This document shows, piece by piece, positions 561 to 8,667 of a stretch of 26,321 nucleotides of DNA (positions are counted from its first letter, which is position 1; every line of letters begins with the position of its first letter). A program made the position numbers and the translations under genes. Below the pieces are notes generated by a model. The model had not been told where the DNA came from and did not search any database. It was given only the letters and a program-made list of their open reading frames with translations. The DNA is taken from IMG/VR virus record IMGVR_UViG_2671180458_000015; one strand, written 5' to 3'. Origin of the DNA: a virus. Taxonomy: Duplodnaviria > Heunggongvirae > Uroviricota > Caudoviricetes.

Positions 561-1712
561 TTAAAACTCAAAGTTCACACCAGCGTTCCAGGATACATCG
601 CCATCGCTCGCTGCCACACCTGCTTTCGCTGCTGTCTGCTCATTGAAACGGTAACCAACACCCACGGCAACAGCCTGTTTGTCACTGTAACCACCAACGG
701 CAGCAGTGGCGTTGAATTTACCCACACTGTACGGCTGGAAAAGACCTGCCAGCGCTGCGCTCTGGGCTGCCGCACGTTTCATCTCTTCGTGGTTTTCATT
801 AATCTGACGCTGATGACTGTTCAGACGTGTGTTGTGCTCCTGCAACTGACGGGAAGTGGACTGAATAGCCTGTGTATTTTTAGTAACCCGGCGGTCAACA
901 CTACCAACAGTAGCATCAATACGGTCTGTTCTGCCGGACAAAGCTACAAGCCCATCATTAACAGCCAGGGTTTTGCTGGCTCCTTCTGCACGGGTCAGGG
1001 TTCCGTCGGAGTTAACACCAACTGTCGTTCTGGAGTCTGTATATTCACGAGACTTTTTCGCTTCAACCACAAGGCGGGTATTCGTATCCTGAGCCAGTTG
1101 CTCAACACTGTCTTTTACACGGTCAACCTGACGAACGGTTGCAGCATCTGAGGGACGAGTACCGTCACTCAGACCACCAAGCACCCGGGTTTTATAAGCC
1201 TTACCCGGCTCTGCTTCATAACCGATATAAACCTCATTGTCACGGGTTGTGCGTGAATTAGCTCCTAATGCAACACTGTTTTTATTTGTTACTGTTGCCT
1301 TTGCCCCTAACGCAGTACCTTCTGTTGCATCTTTATCAACTTTGGCTCGGTTACCTGCTGCCGTGCCATATGTAGCCGTGTTATCAACAAATGCAATGCT
1401 TCCCAGGGCTGTAGATGCATCTGCATAAGCATATGTTCCCCCACCTAAAGCCACACTTTGCTGTCCTCGTGCTGCAGACCATGATCCCACTGATGTTGCA
1501 ATTTCTTTATCCGCGCTGGCCCCTGTACCAACAGCTAGCGCAATCTCTCCATCCGCGCGAGCTGAAGCAGAAAGATCTGTATTTTCTGGGATACTCCCTG
1601 AGGCGATAAGCTTATTCTCCGATGCATCCTGAGCCAGAACGCCAGCGCTTACACCAAATAAAATACCGCCAATAACAACGGAAATAACACTTCGTGATAA
1701 AGACTTATCCAT
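561..1712 (-). CDS. Trimeric autotransporter adhesin, YadA/Eib-like (prophage-borne immunoglobulin-binding protein family candidate)
   Basis: 383 aa with an N-terminal signal peptide ([29 protein letters not shown]), a Thr/Ala/Gly/Ser-rich repetitive passenger, a coiled-coil stalk (…[40 protein letters not shown]) and a YadA-type C-terminal beta-barrel anchor ending GVNFEF. GGAG-type RBS upstream. Sits after the tail fibre genes, the usual cargo position. Confidence 0.7.
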
Positions 1713-2821: not shown

Positions 2822-4558
2822 TTATTCCGTTTTAATCGTTACCCACTGGCTTCCATTGTGAACCTGAAGAAAGCCATAAGTTACAGCAGTAATTTTGTAA
2901 GCCTGTGACCGGATATTCAGAATTACAGCACCATCAGGGACTATATTCATGCCGGGAATCGTTGGTTGTGCTCCATCCAGTGACGGGAAAGTAATCACCT
3001 CATGGTGTGCGACTTCTTTCTTCCCTCCGATACGCAGCCCACTAACCAGCGAAGTTGCGCCATCTTTCCCCGGAGGCCCCATCGGTCCCGGTTCACCGCG
3101 CTCACCTTTGGGACCTGCCAGACCTGCTGGACCTGCTTCTCCCGGATCGCCTTTGTCACCTTTTGGCCCCTGTGCGCCTGCCGGGCCAGCAGCTCCCGTA
3201 TCCCCTTTAGGTCCCTGCGGTCCTGCTGGACCTGCTGGCCCCGTGTCCCCTTTCTCTCCTTTCGGACCGGGAACACCACCTCCTGCTGCAGCCTCTTCTG
3301 CCTTTGTTTTCGCTTCATTTGCCACATCCATTGCCGCCTTCACGGCCTTCGGCGTGGCTGCCTTTGTTTCGTCATTACTGTCAGTATCACTGCTTAACTG
3401 CACCACACCTTTCTGCGTCGTGCTGGCATCCCGCTGGCTGACCGTATCCGGTTTGTTTTTTGTGCTGTAATCCACCCGCCAGTGGAAATACTGTGTGTCG
3501 CCGTAAACCGTACAGGTACAGACCGTGCCATTAATAAACCCCGTTGCACCGTATTCGCCAATGGTGACCCGGACTATGGCAGCCTCATACGTTCCCATCA
3601 CCTCAATGACACAGCCACCCAGATTGAGTTTTCCCGGCCCGACATCCGTGATGACTTTATTGAATCCCGCAGGCAGTGATGCCTTCATCATCCAGTAAGG
3701 CTGGTCAAATGCCCCTTTTTCTTTCAGCCAGGCGACAAACTCACTCGTGGTCCATTCACCGGCCCCCGTATGAATGTCCCGCCCGTATACTCTGGCTGCT
3801 CCCACGGTGTTCAGAAACTTCACCTTATCCGGGATATCGTCACCGTTTTTCGCTTTCTCCAGGCATCCGTCCGCTTTGTCCATTGCCGCTTTCACCGCTT
3901 TCGGGGTGGCTGCCTTCGTTTCATCATCACTGTCCGTTGCGCTGCTTAACTGCACAATTCCCTTCTGTGCCGTCGTCGCATCCGGCCCTCCCGGCTCACC
4001 TTTTTCGCCCTTCTCTCCCCGCTCACCTTTCACACCCTGAAGCCCCTGTGGTCCTGTCTCACCACGCTCACCCTTTGGCCCCCGCTCGCCGGTATCGCCT
4101 TTTGGCCCGGGAATACCCTGTGGCCCCGTGTCTCCCTTATCCCCCTTCGGTCCCCTCGCATTCTCTGCCCGTTTCTTCGCTTCCTCTGCACTCGCCGCTG
4201 ACGCTTCCGCACGTTTCAGGATTTCCGCGGCCACCGCTTCCAGCTCTGCAAGGGCTTTCGGGTAATACTGTGCATCCTCCAGGTCCATCAGAAATTTATT
4301 CAGCGTTCCCGGTGCCGAATCCGCCTTCACCAGAATGTCACCCACATATGACGGCGCGTACCCTTCCGTGTTCAGCGTCACCCGGTACAACCCCGGCTCA
4401 ACATCCATACTGTAACTGCCGGTTTCCCCCGGCTGACCATACGCCACCGTGGTGACAATCACCGTCTCCGTTGTGCGGCGCGCTTTCAGCTCTATCGTGC
4501 ATCCCGGTACCGGTTTTCCCGTACCATCCTTCAGCACACCCGATATTCTGACTGTCAT
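2822..4558 (-). CDS. stf: Side tail fiber protein (lambda Stf-like) with collagen-like Gly-X-Y repeats
   Basis: N-terminus [28 protein letters not shown] matches the lambda Stf N-terminus ([17 protein letters not shown]…LKARR). Two blocks of GXY collagen-like repeats and two copies of the tail-fibre repeat motif (KGIVQLSS…[15 protein letters not shown]). Confidence 0.85.
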
Positions 4559-4571
4559 GGATTTCCCCCAT

Positions 4572-4606
4572 AAAAAAAACCGCAGTACCGGTTTCCCGGC
4601 CTGCGG
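4572..4606 (-). terminator. Intrinsic terminator downstream of the hok-like ORF, immediately upstream of the stf RBS
   Basis: On the minus strand: stem CCGCAG / CTGCGG enclosing an inner CCGG hairpin, followed by UUUUUUUU, then the GGGGGA RBS and stf ATG at 4558. Confidence 0.6.
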
Positions 4607-4701
4607 TAAAATTTGCGGTTTGTTGGTGTTAAAACGGTGCCATCCGGCTGACCACCCTCAGCAACCGGTCGGCGGGGGATATTCTCCCCCGCCACGGTTT
4701 C

Positions 4702-4842
4702 TTACTGCTTACACTGTAAGAACGCCGCAATCTCCGCGCCCGCTATCCGGAACCGGAACTCGCACAGTGAAGTGTGGGTGATCCAGATAATGAGCACTAC
4801 CGTGATACAAATCACGGTGGTTTTTAACGGTTTTTGCGACAT
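4702..4842 (-). CDS. Hok/Gef-family type I toxin (small membrane toxin), not in the ORF track
   Basis: Hand translation of the minus strand gives a 46-aa ORF, MSQKPLKTTVICITVVLIIWITHTSLCEFRFRIAGAEIAAFLQCKQ, with AAGGAG RBS 9 nt upstream of the ATG. One TM helix followed by the Hok family signature (SLCE.R.R…E.AAF), most similar to HokA/HokB-type sequences. Stop TAA at 4702..4704. Confidence 0.7.
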   Translation of the reverse strand: MSQKPLKTTVICITVVLIIWITHTSLCEFRFRIAGAEIAAFLQCKQ

Positions 4843-5043
4843 AAACGCTTGCTCCTTTTACGGAGAGGCGCTAACCTTTCACTTGCTTAGGATGAATGGT
4901 CAGGCCTCGGGTTAAACATGAATGTTTGTCCGGGGCCTTTTCACATCCGGCCTTCAGGTGTTCCCTCCGGCCATCAGCCAAAGGCACCCGCGCATACTGT
5001 ACGGTTTTTGTCTCCTTCCGGCAATCCGTATTCCGGCTGCCTG

Positions 5044-8000
5044 TCACGATCTCCGGGTAAAACCGGAATCTGTCGATTTCGCCACCATGAGAGTAAAGGC
5101 GTCATATCTCCACCGCACCAGCTCTCTCTTTCTCCCTTCCACATCCCCCATATTGCCAGGACCACCTTCAACTCTCATTGTCACTGTAATCCGTGTATCT
5201 CCCCCTCCTGCCACCACATCCCATACTCCTGAAACGGTGTCCCCGAGGTTGGTGTACGTGTTAACAGCATTGCCATTTCTGTCAAAACGACCTGAAAAAC
5301 CCGTATCAGCAATTCTCGGTTCTGCCTTAATGACAACTCTTCCGTTAATCTCTATCGTCAGTGTTCCTGAATAGAAAAAGAAGGGAAGGAGTATCAGCTT
5401 GCGATCAAACGAAACATCATCAGCAAGAGATACCTCCGCCTTAAAGATGACATAACCCTCTCCATACTTGTGGTTCGTAATATGGAGCGTGCCATCACGA
5501 GGTTCGAAGGAATAGCCCTTGACGATATCACCGATGATTCTGTCTGCGCTAATGGTTCCTTTAACAACGCAGTTTTCTGCAATGGTCACGTTATTCAGCG
5601 TGCCCGAGTTCGCACTGATATGTCCGCTGATGTCAGCATTGCGGGCCGTCAGCCTGCCCTCCGGCGTCAGGGAGAACGTCGGGGGATTGCCGGACGAGGT
5701 GATGCTTACTGCAAACAGTCGCTTCAGGAACACATCGTTCATGAACAGCTGATTCCCCTGCGCCACAAACAGCGGCGTGGTGTTGCCGTTCTCCGGGTTA
5801 ATCATCGCGATACGGTCCGCCTGCAGCAGTATATTGCTCAGGGGCTGGCCATCAGCATCCTCAATCCCCGCACCTATACCGGCAACATACGGAATGCCGT
5901 TTTTTGTTTTCTGCACCTTCAGCATGTACAGCGCAGCCAGGTCGTTATTTGTGTCTGTCTGCACCCGCTGTATCTGCTGTATGGTGGCGCTCTGGTCTTC
6001 CAGGGTTTTACTGACCGTCTGCGTGATTTCATTGCGGGTTTCTGTGATGGTGGTCTTCATCTCCGCCATCTCATCGTCAAGCTGGCTGTTATCAATCAGC
6101 TCCCACATCCCCTGTGCCAGATGTGTCTTCCCGATTTCTCCTCTGAAAAAGTCCAGATACCCTTCCGCATCATTGCTCGCCCGGCCACTGGCTTCCACAA
6201 ACGCAGATTTCCCCACCAGGTTGACGCTGCGCACATAAAACCAGAAATCCTTCCCCGGCTTAATGTGCGGGCCGGAGACACTCCACTGGCTGCCTGTCCC
6301 CAGATAACGGGCAAAGGTTTCCACCTGTGCCATGTCCGTGATGCGTTTTTCTGAGAACCAGAATTCAGACTGTACCGTCGGGTCATACACCGCCAGCACC
6401 GGTACTGCTGTTATCTGATAATACCCCGACGTCAGCTCAATGCTGTCCGGTGCTGCCGGGGCGTTAATCCGGAACGTGGTGGTGGCAGGTTCGCCCTGCT
6501 GGCCGTAGCTGTTTATCGCCCTGACCGTCAGGGTGTATTCCCCCAGAGGCAGGCCACTGAAACGGTGCTCCGTGTCGGCAGTGATGGCGCTGGTCACCAG
6601 GCGGCTGTTTTCACCACTGCCACTGGTCAGGCGCAGACTGAAGCGCACGCCCTTCACCACCCGCGGCGTGTCCCATTTCGCCAGCGCCAGATACTGGCCG
6701 TCTGAGGCACTCACCTCCACCGTGAGGTGCTGCACTGCCGGCGGGATGACGCTGTTCAGTGAGCCGGACATCGGCTCAAAGCGGGCCCCGTTATCCACGA
6801 TGGCTTCTTTTTCCGGTACGTGCTGCACTGCCGTGATGGCAAAGGTGCCGTCCGTGTTTTCCCGGATGGAAACACAGCGGAACAGGCGACGACGCAGTGA
6901 CGGCAGGGAGAGTCCCCACACACCGTATGTCGCCACGCCATCAGGCAGAATGCTGACCTGTATCCGGTCAGGGGCGGGTTGTGCAGTGATGTCCACGCGC
7001 ACCGGCTTACCGCTGCCGTTAATCAGGTTCACCGTCGATGTCCCTGTTTCCGGCAGTGTCACCTCACGGTCCAGCGTCAGGGTACGGCTGGCGGCATCGA
7101 TGGACAGGATACGTCCGCCGGTCAGGGTCCCGGCATAGTCGTTATCACAGATTTCAATGATGTCACCGGGCGTGTGCCGCAGCCCCTGTGACCCGAGCGT
7201 GAAATCCACCGTCTGCGTTTCCAGCAGTTCTGTCTTTATCACCCACAGTCCGGCACGGTGGGCCTGACCGCGGCTGGTACAGCCAAACGCATCCATCTTC
7301 AGCAGATTGCGCCCGTAGCGCAGGATGGCGTCCGGGTCTTCCACCAGTTCAGTGGAAGTCTGCCAGCCGTTCTGCGGGTCGGTGTAATTCACCTCCACCG
7401 CCGTGTGCCGGTCCTTCAGGGCACTGAAGCTGTAGCGGAACCCCACGCCGTTATCATCCACCACCACATCGCTGTTGGTGTACGGCCACACCACATCCGA
7501 CGGACGGTCCTGAACGAACGTCAGCGTCTGGCCGTTCCATACCGGCATACAGCGCATCGCCGAGCAGAAATCCCCCAGGACATCCCACACCTTACGCTGC
7601 TGTGACAGGTACGCATTAAAGGTCATCCGCGGCTCTGTGCCCCCGAAACCATCCGGGACCGTCTGGTCGCAGTACTGCCCGATGGCATACAGAGCCCACT
7701 TGTCCACATCCGCCGCCCCCAGGCGTTTTCCCATGCCGTAGCGCGGGTGGGTCAGCATGTCCCACAGGCACCAGGCCGGGTTATTGCTGTATGCCGGTTT
7801 CAGGCTGCCGTCCCAGATACCGCTGTAGGTGCGTTTTTCCGGGTCATAGTTTGACGGCACCTGAATGATGCGACCGCGGATATGGTAGTTCACCACCATC
7901 TGCTGGCCACCGAACTGCTCCGCATCCACCTGCAGCCCCACAATGGCCGTGTTCGGGTAGCACTGTTTCACATCGATGATTTCGGTGTATGACGACCACA

Positions 8001-8592
8001 GCGTTCTGTTCTGCAGCTGGTCCGTGGTGCTGTCCGCCGTCTCCCTGACCATCCGGATGTTAAAGGGGCGCTCAGGGAGATTATTCAGAATCACCGACGT
8101 CAGGTACTGCGAGGTAGTCTTGCCGTTAATGGTGATATCCTTCTCCGTCACCCAGTTACCGTTACGCTCAAGCTGAATCAGCAGGCGGACAGAAGAGGGG
8201 TTACGGTCACCCTTTGAGGTGGTCTCCACCAGTGACTGCACCCCGAAGGTGACCCGCAGACGGTCAATGTTCGCTGACGTGATGGTGCGCGTCACCGGCT
8301 TTGCCTTCGTCACCTCCACGCCCAGTGCGGTTTCCGCCCCGGAGGACTCAAAGCCTTCCGGCGGTGTCTGCTCCTGCTCCCCGGCACGCCAGACGGCGGT
8401 CACACCGTGTATCACGGGATTACCGTCCGTGTCCGTCAGCGGGGTTTTGTTCACCAGAATACTCTGCAGTCCCTTCACCGGACCTTCCACCGGTCCCTCA
8501 CCAATGGCATCAATCACGCTCATCATCTGCGTGGATTTGAGATTGTCCTTCGCCTCACGCGGTGTGTGCCCCTTGCCGCCCCCTTTACCCAC
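5044..8592 (-). CDS. J: Tail tip / host specificity protein J (central tail fibre)
   Basis: Strong collinear similarity to lambda gpJ through most of its length ([21 protein letters not shown]…, FN3-like region, …[13 protein letters not shown]). Probable GTG start at 8592 preceded by AGGAGA; the six-frame ORF extends to 8643. The C-terminal ~150 aa are unlike lambda J. Confidence 0.93.
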
Positions 8593-8630
8593 TCTGTCCC
8601 CCTCTCCTGTCTGATGTCTGAATCTGTTTA

Positions 8631-8667
8631 TGCCCAAAAACAACAGGCACCCCGGAGGGTGCCTGTG
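8631..8667 (-). terminator. Intrinsic terminator-like hairpin about 40 nt upstream of the J start
   Basis: On the minus strand: 10-bp stem ACAGGCACCC / GGGTGCCTGT with a 4-nt loop, followed by UGUUUUUUGGG. Confidence 0.5.

What the first reader, a model, noticed from the sequence alone, without database searches (positions are those of the whole stretch)
4559..5043. Hok/Gef-family type I toxin gene in the J-stf spacer, missing from the ORF track
Hand translation of the minus strand (4842 to 4702) gives a 46-aa protein, MSQKPLKTTVICITVVLIIWITHTSLCEFRFRIAGAEIAAFLQCKQ, with a good AAGGAG RBS. It has a single TM helix and the Hok family signature (SLCE.R.R…E.AAF), closest to HokA/HokB-like sequences. 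The locus fills the spacer where lambda carries lom, and ends in a strong intrinsic terminator right before the stf RBS. Hok toxins are normally controlled by an antisense Sok RNA and an overlapping mok frame; I could not locate these by eye. hok/sok loci have been reported to affect phage infection, so this is plausible superinfection-exclusion or stabilisation cargo.
Basis: partly seen in the sequence, partly recalled or inferred. Interest (0 to 1): 0.6.

Follow-up and report, generated by a model that had tools for sequence, protein, structure and literature searches.

The report
Prophage hok/sok toxin-antitoxin module

Summary
A 46-aa ORF (4842..4702, minus strand) with an AAGGAG ribosome-binding site passes the Pfam Hok/Gef threshold (42 bits against 22).

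The whole 485-bp J-stf spacer is one hok/sok module:
- an own promoter and a roughly 417-nt hok mRNA (4989 to about 4572);
- a 5'-3' fold-back (tac-fbi) supported by compensatory changes in 56 relatives;
- a target hairpin and a terminator;
- on the plus strand, a Sok-like antisense RNA (about 4885-4942). Its -10 hexamer TAACCT matches the -10 I reconstructed for sokW from the mutagenesis primers of a published study.

It is not new. RefSeq annotates the identical gene as "Hok/Gef family protein" (about 120 complete E. coli genomes carry a 90% or more identical locus). A 2025-26 preprint catalogued Hok in prophages and tested a 2-residue variant, which is not among the three homologs it reports as non-toxic. 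The characterised hokW-sokW of phage Sp5 is a different locus.

Small extras: a fixed J-stf position, a mok-less allele, and a hypervariable Sok-recognition patch. Interest is low.

The parts
4996..5024 (-). Candidate hok promoter: -35 TTGCCG (5024-5019), 17-nt spacer, -10 TACAGT (5001-4996); predicted +1 at G4989
   Evidence: Read from the sequence. The -10 position is conserved as TAGAAT/TAAATT/TAGATT in relatives. K-12 hokC has TATAAT at the same spacing from GGGTGC. The hexamers are below the promoter scanner's threshold.
4572..4989 (-). Predicted full-length hok mRNA (about 417 nt)
   Evidence: MFE -183.6 kcal/mol, z = -8.06 against shuffles. The ends are inferred from homology to the hokC/hokW leaders and from the terminator. 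They have not been mapped experimentally.
4974..4989 (-). tac-like 5' element: GGGUGCC UUU GGCUGA
   Evidence: It pairs with 4651-4636 in the MFE structure. GGGTGCCTT is invariant or nearly invariant in 56 relatives. RNAalifold recovers the helix independently.
4865..4911 (-). Sok-target stem-loop of the hok leader; its upper stem and loop (4899-4879) are hypervariable; the loop carries a YUNR-type CUAA
   Evidence: The hairpin forms in the 3'-trimmed mRNA fold and in all five allele variants through compensatory changes. It is part of the Rfam RF01794 match at 4831-4989, 55 bits, E = 2.6e-11.
4852..4857 (-). hok Shine-Dalgarno AAGGAG, partly paired with the upstream CUCC (4865-4862)
4702..4842 (-). 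hok coding sequence, 46 aa (MSQKPLKTTVICITVVLIIWITHTSLCEFRFRIAGAEIAAFLQCKQ)
   Evidence: An identical gene is annotated as Hok/Gef family protein WP_000078854.1. A 2-aa variant (79_1563) was tested for toxicity in bioRxiv 10.1101/2025.08.07.668861 and is not among the three non-toxic homologs the text names.
4722..4730 (-). Downstream box pairing with the hok start region (AUGUCGCAA 4842-4834)
   Evidence: MFE structure and RNAalifold consensus, columns 167-175 with 282-290, 99% paired. The pairs are almost invariant, so there is no covariation evidence.
4663..4699 (-). Hairpin just after the hok stop codon
   Evidence: Five pairs change on both sides across relatives, for example AU28/GC23 and AU23/GC23.
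4636..4651 (-). fbi-like 3' element: UCAGCC GGAU GGCACC
   Evidence: It pairs with the 5' end. Helix 1 is 97.6% paired, and 4 of its pairs change on both sides (23:385 GC27/CG23; 24:384 GC44/AU7).
4572..4607 (-). Intrinsic terminator of hok mRNA: branched G+C stem followed by U8
4849..4877 (+). Candidate Sok promoter: -35 TTGCTC (4849-4854, overlapping the complement of the hok SD), 17-nt spacer, -10 TAACCT (4872-4877)
   Evidence: TAACCT is the complement of the AAGGTTAG block, which is invariant in 55 of 56 relatives. It aligns with the hexamer that Takada et al. 2021 mutated to make promoter-less sokW, as I reconstructed from their primers. It is below the promoter scanner's threshold.
4885..4942 (+). 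Predicted Sok-like antisense RNA (about 58 nt): 5' tail, hairpin 4902-4938, U-tract
   Evidence: Fold gives -21.5 kcal/mol. The 5' end is placed by aligning to the annotated 5' end of K-12 sokC. No transcript data were available.
5044..8643 (-). Upstream flank: tail-tip protein J
2822..4558 (-). Downstream flank: side tail fibre (phage_tail_N, fibre repeats, collagen repeats)

Best explanation
The J-stf spacer (4559-5043) is a self-contained hok/sok-type type I toxin-antitoxin module carried as cargo by a lambda-like E. coli prophage. It sits where phage lambda carries lom. SHOWN: the 46-aa ORF is a Hok/Gef family member. The surrounding RNA has the hok-mRNA architecture: a conserved 5' end, a long-range 5'-3' fold-back with compensatory changes, a leader homologous to the hokC and hokW leaders, a target hairpin, pairing that buries the start codon, and a terminator. 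INFERRED BY HOMOLOGY: a roughly 58-nt Sok RNA is made from the opposite strand, from TTGCTC-17-TAACCT. INFERRED MECHANISM (R1 hok/sok paradigm, from established knowledge): the stable full-length hok mRNA is locked by tac-fbi pairing. Slow 3' trimming removes fbi, and the 5' end refolds so that the target hairpin appears. The unstable Sok RNA then binds through its 5' tail and triggers RNase III decay. If Sok is no longer replenished, Hok is made, inserts into the inner membrane and depolarises the cell. This allele has no mok frame, and the Sok duplex (4885-4942) does not cover the hok SD (4857-4852). Sok must therefore act through mRNA decay or structure rather than through mok-hok translational coupling. 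ROLE (untested, in the order I favour): prophage stabilisation or competition by post-segregational killing; help with lysis after induction, because hok lies inside the late operon and in its orientation, as was shown for hokW; abortive infection against superinfecting phage.
For: The ORF and its ribosome-binding site are present. Pfam HOK_GEF scores 42.2 bits against a gathering score of 22, and PHROG 251 matches at E = 4e-21. The Rfam hok/sok leader model matches at 55 bits, E = 2.6e-11, on the hok strand. The full-length mRNA folds with z = -8.06 and contains the 5'-3' fold-back. RNAalifold on 56 relatives recovers that helix independently. In the pair-count test 98.8% of cells are paired against 31-46% in slid controls, 11 pairs change on both sides, and 0 of 500 shuffles reach the observed covariation score. 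The 3'-trimmed mRNA refolds into a 5' stem plus the target hairpin. The leader aligns with K-12 hokC/sokC and with Sp5 hokW/sokW, and the -10 I reconstructed for sokW from the published mutagenesis primers is the same TAACCT. The hok CDS is under strong constraint among J-stf alleles, with pi = 0.008. A 2-residue variant (79_1563) is in the set tested for toxicity in E. coli, and the three homologs named as non-toxic do not include it. PGAP annotates the identical gene as a Hok/Gef family protein.
Against: There are no transcript or toxicity data for this exact allele. The mok frame, a defining regulatory part of the R1 paradigm, is absent, so how translation is activated is unknown. Both promoters are below the consensus scanner's threshold. 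The Rfam score is 4 bits below its gathering score. The NCBIfam Hok models are far below their cut-offs. Decayed copies of the locus exist elsewhere, and K-12 chromosomal hok loci are known to be partly inactive (established knowledge).
Confidence: 0.88

Rival explanations
1. The locus is a silent relic. Without mok, and with the SD and AUG buried in structure, Hok is never translated, and the module is simply carried along with the tail genes.
For: All three reading frames are closed upstream of hok, and no start codon reads into it, whereas 95%-identical relatives keep a 70-codon mok-like frame. The SD is partly paired and the AUG fully paired in both predicted folds. Copies with a GTG start, a lost ATG or a frameshift exist.
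Against: The hok CDS is intact and nearly invariant (pi = 0.008), while a neighbouring 21-nt patch has pi = 0.28. All RNA helices are kept through compensatory changes. Most members of the subfamily also lack mok, so its absence looks like the norm rather than decay. The SD is a strong AAGGAG.
Confidence: 0.1
2. The main role is to assist lysis. Q-antiterminated late transcription from J through stf reads across hok, swamps Sok, and Hok helps permeabilise the membrane at the end of the lytic cycle, as reported for hokW-sokW in Sp5. This is a rival about role, not about identity.
For: hok lies inside the late operon, in the same orientation as J and stf. The related allele in 933W-type phages lies between lom and the next late-region gene. 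Takada et al. 2021 showed that mitomycin C lowers sokW, raises HokW, and that deleting the locus halves phage release.
Against: hokW is a different Hok cluster at a different place in Sp5. The module has its own promoter, terminator and fold-back lock, which a pure late gene would not need. No data exist for this locus.
Confidence: 0.3
3. The main role is abortive-infection defence of the lysogen against superinfecting lytic phages: host transcription shut-off depletes Sok, and Hok kills the cell before the invading phage matures.
For: From established knowledge, R1 hok/sok was reported to exclude T4, and prophage moron slots often carry defence genes. hok genes are about four-fold enriched in prophages.
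Against: PADLOC has no matching model. The preprint found no enrichment of hok near defence systems. There is no test for this allele.
Confidence: 0.2

Closest known systems
Hok cluster '79' of Escalera-Maurer et al. (bioRxiv 10.1101/2025.08.07.668861), tested representative 79_1563; RefSeq WP_000078854.1
   Same: The peptide is the same apart from two residues (T24S, Q46R), and the nucleotide sequence of the CDS is nearly the same. The identical protein is already annotated as 'Hok/Gef family protein' in RefSeq E. coli genomes.
   Different: Nothing substantive differs at the protein level. That study did not analyse mok, Sok, the mRNA elements or the position inside prophages.
46-aa hok locus downstream of lom in 933W / Sp5 (VT2-Sakai) / Shigella 75/02 Stx phages (their cluster 72; PHROG 251 'MokW-like host killing')
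   Same: It is about 78% identical in DNA over the mRNA and 65% in protein. It has the same length, the same leader, the same tac/fbi elements, the same Sok -10 and the same C-terminal AEIAAFLQCKQ motif, and it also lacks mok.
   Different: It sits between lom and a 133-aa gene in short-tailed Stx phages, not between J and stf. Its Sok-target patch is different.
hokW-sokW of Sakai prophage 5 (Takada et al. 2021, PMC8621323)
   Same: It is a prophage-borne hok/sok module with a homologous leader, the same -35/SD overlap and the same TAACCT at the Sok -10 position (as I reconstructed it from their primers). It has been shown to be a type I TA system that depends partly on RNase III and Hfq.
   Different: It encodes a 51-aa Gef/HokC-like toxin. 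It lies about 13 kb away in Sp5 (near 57.8 kb, against 44.5-44.9 kb for the 46-aa locus) and has a mok ATG. It is not the same locus or cluster.
hok/sok of plasmid R1 and the chromosomal hokC (gef)/mokC/sokC of E. coli K-12
   Same: The overall architecture matches: toxin mRNA with 5'-3' fold-back, a cis-antisense Sok of about 60 nt ending in a G+C hairpin and U-tract, and a Sok promoter overlapping the hok SD (R1 details are from established knowledge).
   Different: There is no mok: the mokC ATG aligns with ATC followed by an early stop. The peptide is 46 rather than 50-52 aa. NCBIfam Hok models are not met.
lambda lom moron (J-lom-stf)
   Same: It occupies the same slot between J and the side tail-fibre gene and is an autonomous cassette with its own promoter and terminator (lambda gene order is from established knowledge; J and stf flanks are).
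   Different: There is no homology. lom encodes an outer-membrane protein. In 933W-type phages lom and the hok module sit side by side.

Membership tests
Hok/Gef protein family (Pfam PF01848) | Score at or above the Pfam gathering threshold | tested here: met
   42.2 bits against 22, E = 6.1e-11, profile positions 8-42 of 42
Hok/Gef protein family (Pfam PF01848) | Short peptide (about 45-55 aa) with one N-terminal hydrophobic helix and the conserved (S)LCE...E.A.F core | tested here: met
   The sequence has these features. S25, C27, E37, A39, A40 and F41 are invariant in the subfamily alignment.
HokA (NCBIfam NF007290 equivalog) / Hok subfamily (NF007279) | Score at or above the curated cut-off | tested here: not met
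   37.9 bits against 89, and 37.1 against 73. The peptide is not HokA and is only loosely 'HokA-like'.
hok/sok type I TA locus (R1 paradigm) | Long-range 5'-3' (tac-fbi) fold-back in the full-length toxin mRNA | tested here: met
   Present in the MFE structure and the RNAalifold consensus. The helix is 97.6% paired with 4 pairs changed on both sides.
hok/sok type I TA locus (R1 paradigm) | Cis-encoded antisense Sok RNA with its own promoter overlapping the hok SD region | tested here: inconclusive
   TTGCTC-17-TAACCT and a hairpin plus U-tract are present and align with the annotated sokC and with the sokW -10 reconstructed from published primers. The promoter scanner finds nothing at its threshold, and there are no transcript data.
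hok/sok type I TA locus (R1 paradigm) | Match to the Rfam hok/sok leader model RF01794 | tested here: inconclusive
   55 bits, E = 2.6e-11, full-length match (1-157), but the gathering score is 59.
hok/sok type I TA locus (R1 paradigm) | mok reading frame that starts in the Sok-target region and overlaps hok (translational coupling) | tested here: not met
   All three frames are closed between -47 and -15, and no ATG/GTG/TTG reads into hok. The mokC/mokW ATG aligns with ATC. A mok-like frame is present in only 8 of 61 unique relatives, or 12 if those with only a TTG start are counted.
hok/sok type I TA locus (R1 paradigm) | Target hairpin whose loop carries a YUNR U-turn motif for Sok recognition | tested here: met
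   The hairpin at 4911-4865 forms in the trimmed mRNA fold. The loops CCUAAGCAA and CUUCAGCAA contain CUAA and UUCA. The significance of the motif is from established knowledge (Franch et al. 1999).
hok/sok type I TA locus (R1 paradigm) | Toxicity of the peptide and neutralisation by the antisense RNA | not testable with these tools
   From the literature only: the 2-aa variant 79_1563 is in the tested set and is not among the three non-toxic homologs named. Neutralisation by Sok has not been tested for this cluster.
hokW-sokW of Sp5 (Takada 2021) | Same toxin and same locus | tested here: not met
   HokW is 51 aa (MKQQKAM...YESEK), Gef-like, and lies at about 57.8 kb of VT2-Sakai. The relative of the window locus lies at 44.5-44.9 kb.

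The most novel reading that the evidence does not exclude
The 21-nt patch 4899-4879, which is the upper stem and loop of the Sok-target hairpin and the complement of the Sok 5' tail, may be a specificity determinant under diversifying selection. Otherwise near-identical J-stf hok modules, and the up to seven paralogues in one STEC genome, would then carry mutually orthogonal Sok antitoxins. This would resemble incompatibility switching in antisense-controlled plasmid replicons, and it would stop one prophage's Sok from disarming another prophage's Hok. On this reading, the subfamily also works without mok, which implies a Sok mechanism based on decay or structure rather than translational coupling.
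Probability: 0.25. Interest if true: 0.5.

Novelty: already known. Interest (0 to 1): 0.2.

Why it matters
This result mainly serves as quality control. It confirms that a small toxin gene hides in a tail-gene spacer, and that phage records such as 1720a-02 and 933W still label such genes 'hypothetical'. It also supplies what the recent Hok catalogue left open for this cluster: explicit coordinates for the mRNA, the tac/fbi elements, the target hairpin and Sok. If the mok-less regulation and the hypervariable Sok-recognition patch proved functional, they would say something about how co-resident prophages keep addiction modules from cross-neutralising each other. That goes beyond the finding as given.

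Tried and rejected
I solved this by passing alignment A1.
- The consensus promoter scan found no sigma-70 site in 4400-5200, and it reported only two plus-strand terminator-like sites that are the complements of hok-mRNA hairpins. I therefore assigned both promoters by homology.
- Rfam at gathering thresholds found nothing in the whole window, and there are no tRNA genes.
- PADLOC has no model that matches the peptide.
- One literature query was rejected for syntax.
- I first assumed the 78%-identical Stx-phage relative was the characterised hokW. The paper's primers and a BLAST search showed that it is a second, different locus of Sp5.
- I considered short leader ORFs as mok substitutes: ATG-TGA at 4945-4940, a 10-codon ORF from ATG 4921, and GTG-AAA-GGT-TAG at 4883-4871. 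None is conserved among relatives, so I did not adopt them.
- I tested whether paralogues in one genome always differ in the Sok-target patch. Most pairs differ, but L033/L036 and L041/L043 are identical, so strict insulation is not shown.

Full report
**Observation.** An AAGGAG site lies at 4857-4852, 9 nt before the ATG. An in-frame TAA at 4860-4858 rules out a longer N-terminus. The ORF lies in the 485-bp spacer between J (5044..8643) and a side tail-fibre gene (2822..4558; Pfam phage_tail_N, fibre repeats, collagen repeats). The window as a whole is the late arm of a lambda-like prophage, with all large ORFs on the minus strand.

**Family assignment.** Pfam HOK_GEF scores 42.2 bits against a gathering score of 22. 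PHROG 251, 'MokW-like host killing', matches at E = 4e-21. The NCBIfam HokA equivalog (37.9 bits against 89) and the Hok subfamily model (37.1 against 73) are not met. PADLOC has no matching model.

**RNA anatomy: leader and promoters.** Rfam RF01794 ('sok') matches 4831-4989 on the hok strand over its full length (55 bits, E = 2.6e-11, gathering score 59). The model's consensus begins like the hokC mRNA 5' end and ends at the hok AUG, so in practice it describes the hok leader in the sense orientation. A four-way alignment of the window leader, the 933W-type leader, K-12 hokC and Sp5 hokW shows one shared architecture.

The predicted 5' end is G4989. It lies 7 nt after a -10 TACAGT (5001-4996), which sits at the same spacing as the TATAAT of hokC. 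The matching -35, TTGCCG, is at 5024-5019.

On the plus strand, TTGCTC (4849-4854) overlaps the complement of the hok SD. It is followed after 17 nt by TAACCT (4872-4877). This hexamer is the complement of the block AAGGTTAG, which is identical in 55 of 56 relatives. It also aligns with the sokW hexamer. From the published primers, I reconstruct that Takada et al. changed GGCTAACC to GGCGAGCC there to make promoter-less sokW. Aligning to the annotated 5' end of sokC places the Sok 5' end at G4885. A hairpin at 4902-4938 and a U-tract end the RNA near 4942, giving about 58 nt against 59 nt annotated for SokC. Both promoters fall below the simple scanner's threshold, so they rest on homology.

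**RNA anatomy: fold-back and refolding.** The modelled 417-nt mRNA (4989 to about 4572) folds at -183.6 kcal/mol, z = -8.06. In that fold G4988-A4974 pair with C4636-U4651, a tac-fbi-type fold-back. The hok AUG region (4842-4834) pairs with 4722-4730, and GGAG of the SD pairs with CUCC at 4865-4862. When the 3' part including fbi is removed, the 5' end refolds locally and the target hairpin at 4911-4865 appears. This is the refolding expected from the R1 paradigm (established knowledge).

**Comparative test.** I collected 12 genome loci and 79 IMG/VR loci that encode relatives and aligned 56 non-identical mRNA regions. RNAalifold recovered the 5'-3' helix on its own. In the pair-count test, 98.8% of cells are standard pairs, against 31-46% when the 3' partners are slid by 1-3 columns. 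Eleven pairs change on both sides, and no shuffle out of 500 reaches the observed covariation score. The tac-fbi helix has four such pairs (for example 23:385 GC27/CG23), and the post-stop hairpin has five. The AUG/downstream-box helix is almost invariant, so it is neither supported nor contradicted by covariation.

**mok.** In the window all three frames are closed between -47 and -15 relative to the hok ATG, and no ATG, GTG or TTG reads into hok. The mokC/mokW ATG aligns with ATC, which is followed by a stop four codons later. Among 61 unique relatives, only eight have a long mok-like frame overlapping hok with an ATG start at -76 or -103, and four more have only a TTG at -46. One of the eight is L038, which is 95% identical to the window. 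Compared with L038, the window has CCTAAG in place of CCTTCAG and one extra T before the ATG. The predicted Sok duplex (4885-4942) does not reach the SD (4857-4852). From this I infer that Sok acts through decay or structure rather than through translational coupling.

**Distribution and context.** The 485 bp are 100% identical in two RefSeq E. coli chromosomes. About 120 complete-genome records have a locus at least 90% identical, and 1530 of 5426 genomes match at some level, with up to 7 places per genome. In JNEC-KY202 the gene is annotated 'Hok/Gef family protein', WP_000078854.1, between gpJ and the tail-fibre gene, in a prophage next to prfC. In Stx phage 1720a-02 (98.5% identical) it is labelled 'hypothetical'. 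Among IMG/VR loci, the window-type allele lies J-hok-stf in 27 of 31 cases. The 933W-type allele lies lom-hok-gp63 in 28 of 31. Other alleles follow gpD and Ogr at the ends of P2-like prophages.

**Relation to the literature.** The characterised hokW-sokW of Sp5 (PMC8621323) is a different locus. Its toxin is a 51-aa Gef-like peptide and it lies near 57.8 kb of VT2-Sakai. The relative of the window locus is at 44.5-44.9 kb, just after lom. The preprint 10.1101/2025.08.07.668861 catalogued 44,248 Hok homologues, including those in prophages and IMG/VR phages, and reports about four-fold enrichment in prophages. Its Table S2 of experimentally tested sequences contains 79_1563, which differs from the window peptide at two residues, and 72_1589, which is the 933W-type peptide. 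The text says 42 of 45 tested homologues were toxic and names the three that were not, and none of the three belongs to these clusters. The authors state that they did not analyse mok, Sok or the mRNA elements.

**Verdict.** The modest additions from this analysis are explicit coordinates for all RNA parts, the demonstration that this allele lacks mok, the fixed J-stf slot, and a hypervariable Sok-recognition patch. That patch has pi = 0.28 over 4899-4879, against 0.008 in the CDS, and the hairpin is kept by compensatory changes. Copies in the same genome usually differ in this patch but not always, so the idea of insulation between paralogues remains a hypothesis.

Noticed in passing
window 4879-4899 (minus strand); alignment A2 columns 107-128: A 21-nt patch in the upper stem and loop of the Sok-target hairpin is hypervariable among otherwise 95% or more identical J-stf hok modules (pi = 0.28, against 0.019 for the rest of the mRNA and 0.008 for the CDS). 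Five variants all keep the hairpin through compensatory changes. A second two-allele patch lies at 4939-4947 (GAUGUGAAA against GAAAGACGA).
   Followed up: partly
L038, L042, L030 (ATG at -76); L009, L078, L081, L085, L087 (ATG at -103): A minority of relatives carry a 70-80-codon mok-like frame that overlaps hok, while most, including the window and the 933W-type loci, have none. In this Hok subfamily mok is sporadic rather than defining.
   Followed up: partly
AP000363.1 (VT2-Sakai/Sp5) 44516-44910 and about 57500-57830; L003, L096: Sp5 and 933W-type Stx phages carry two different hok loci: the characterised hokW (Gef-like, 51 aa) and an uncharacterised 46-aa one right after lom. In many phage records the latter is labelled 'hypothetical' or 'MokW-like host killing'.
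   Followed up: partly
L051 about 2930-3140 and about 3430; L058 2408-2653, 3001-3141 and about 3433: Some prophage ends carry tandem hok modules. A second leader of the same subfamily with a different target patch lies about 500 nt downstream, and in L058 there is also an 81-aa in-frame mok-hok ORF of another Hok type 400 nt upstream.
   Followed up: no
L047, L048, L053: These are decayed copies of the J-stf hok module. L047 has a GTG in place of ATG plus a 21-nt leader deletion, L048 has lost its start codon, and L053 has a frameshift in the C-terminal part.
   Followed up: no
L005 (Planococcaceae MAG), L006 (Vagococcus sp.), L008 (Xanthomonas pisi): Enterobacterial-type hok loci appear in assemblies labelled as Firmicutes or Xanthomonas. 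The L008 peptide is identical to the 933W-type, and L006 has the P2-like Ogr context. These look like contaminating enterobacterial contigs rather than true hosts.
   Followed up: no
window 2822-4558 (minus strand): The side tail-fibre protein contains three collagen triple-helix repeat stretches (Pfam Collagen, 72 bits) between the phage_tail_N domain and the fibre repeats.
   Followed up: no
window 561-1712 (minus strand): An ORF of 383 aa lies near the prophage end. By coordinate offset it matches the CDS that PGAP annotates as 'YadA-like family protein' in a genome identical over the 485-bp query (identity of this ORF itself was not checked). It would be possible adhesin-like cargo downstream of the tail-fibre assembly gene (DUF4376, 2087-2758).
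   Followed up: no
window 4702-4740 (minus strand); A2 columns 282-320: The last roughly 40 nt of the hok CDS (UUGCGGCGUUCUUACAGUGUAAGCAGUAA) are almost invariant across the whole subfamily, including synonymous sites. This fits RNA-level constraint from pairing with the start-codon region, acting on top of protein constraint.
   Followed up: partly
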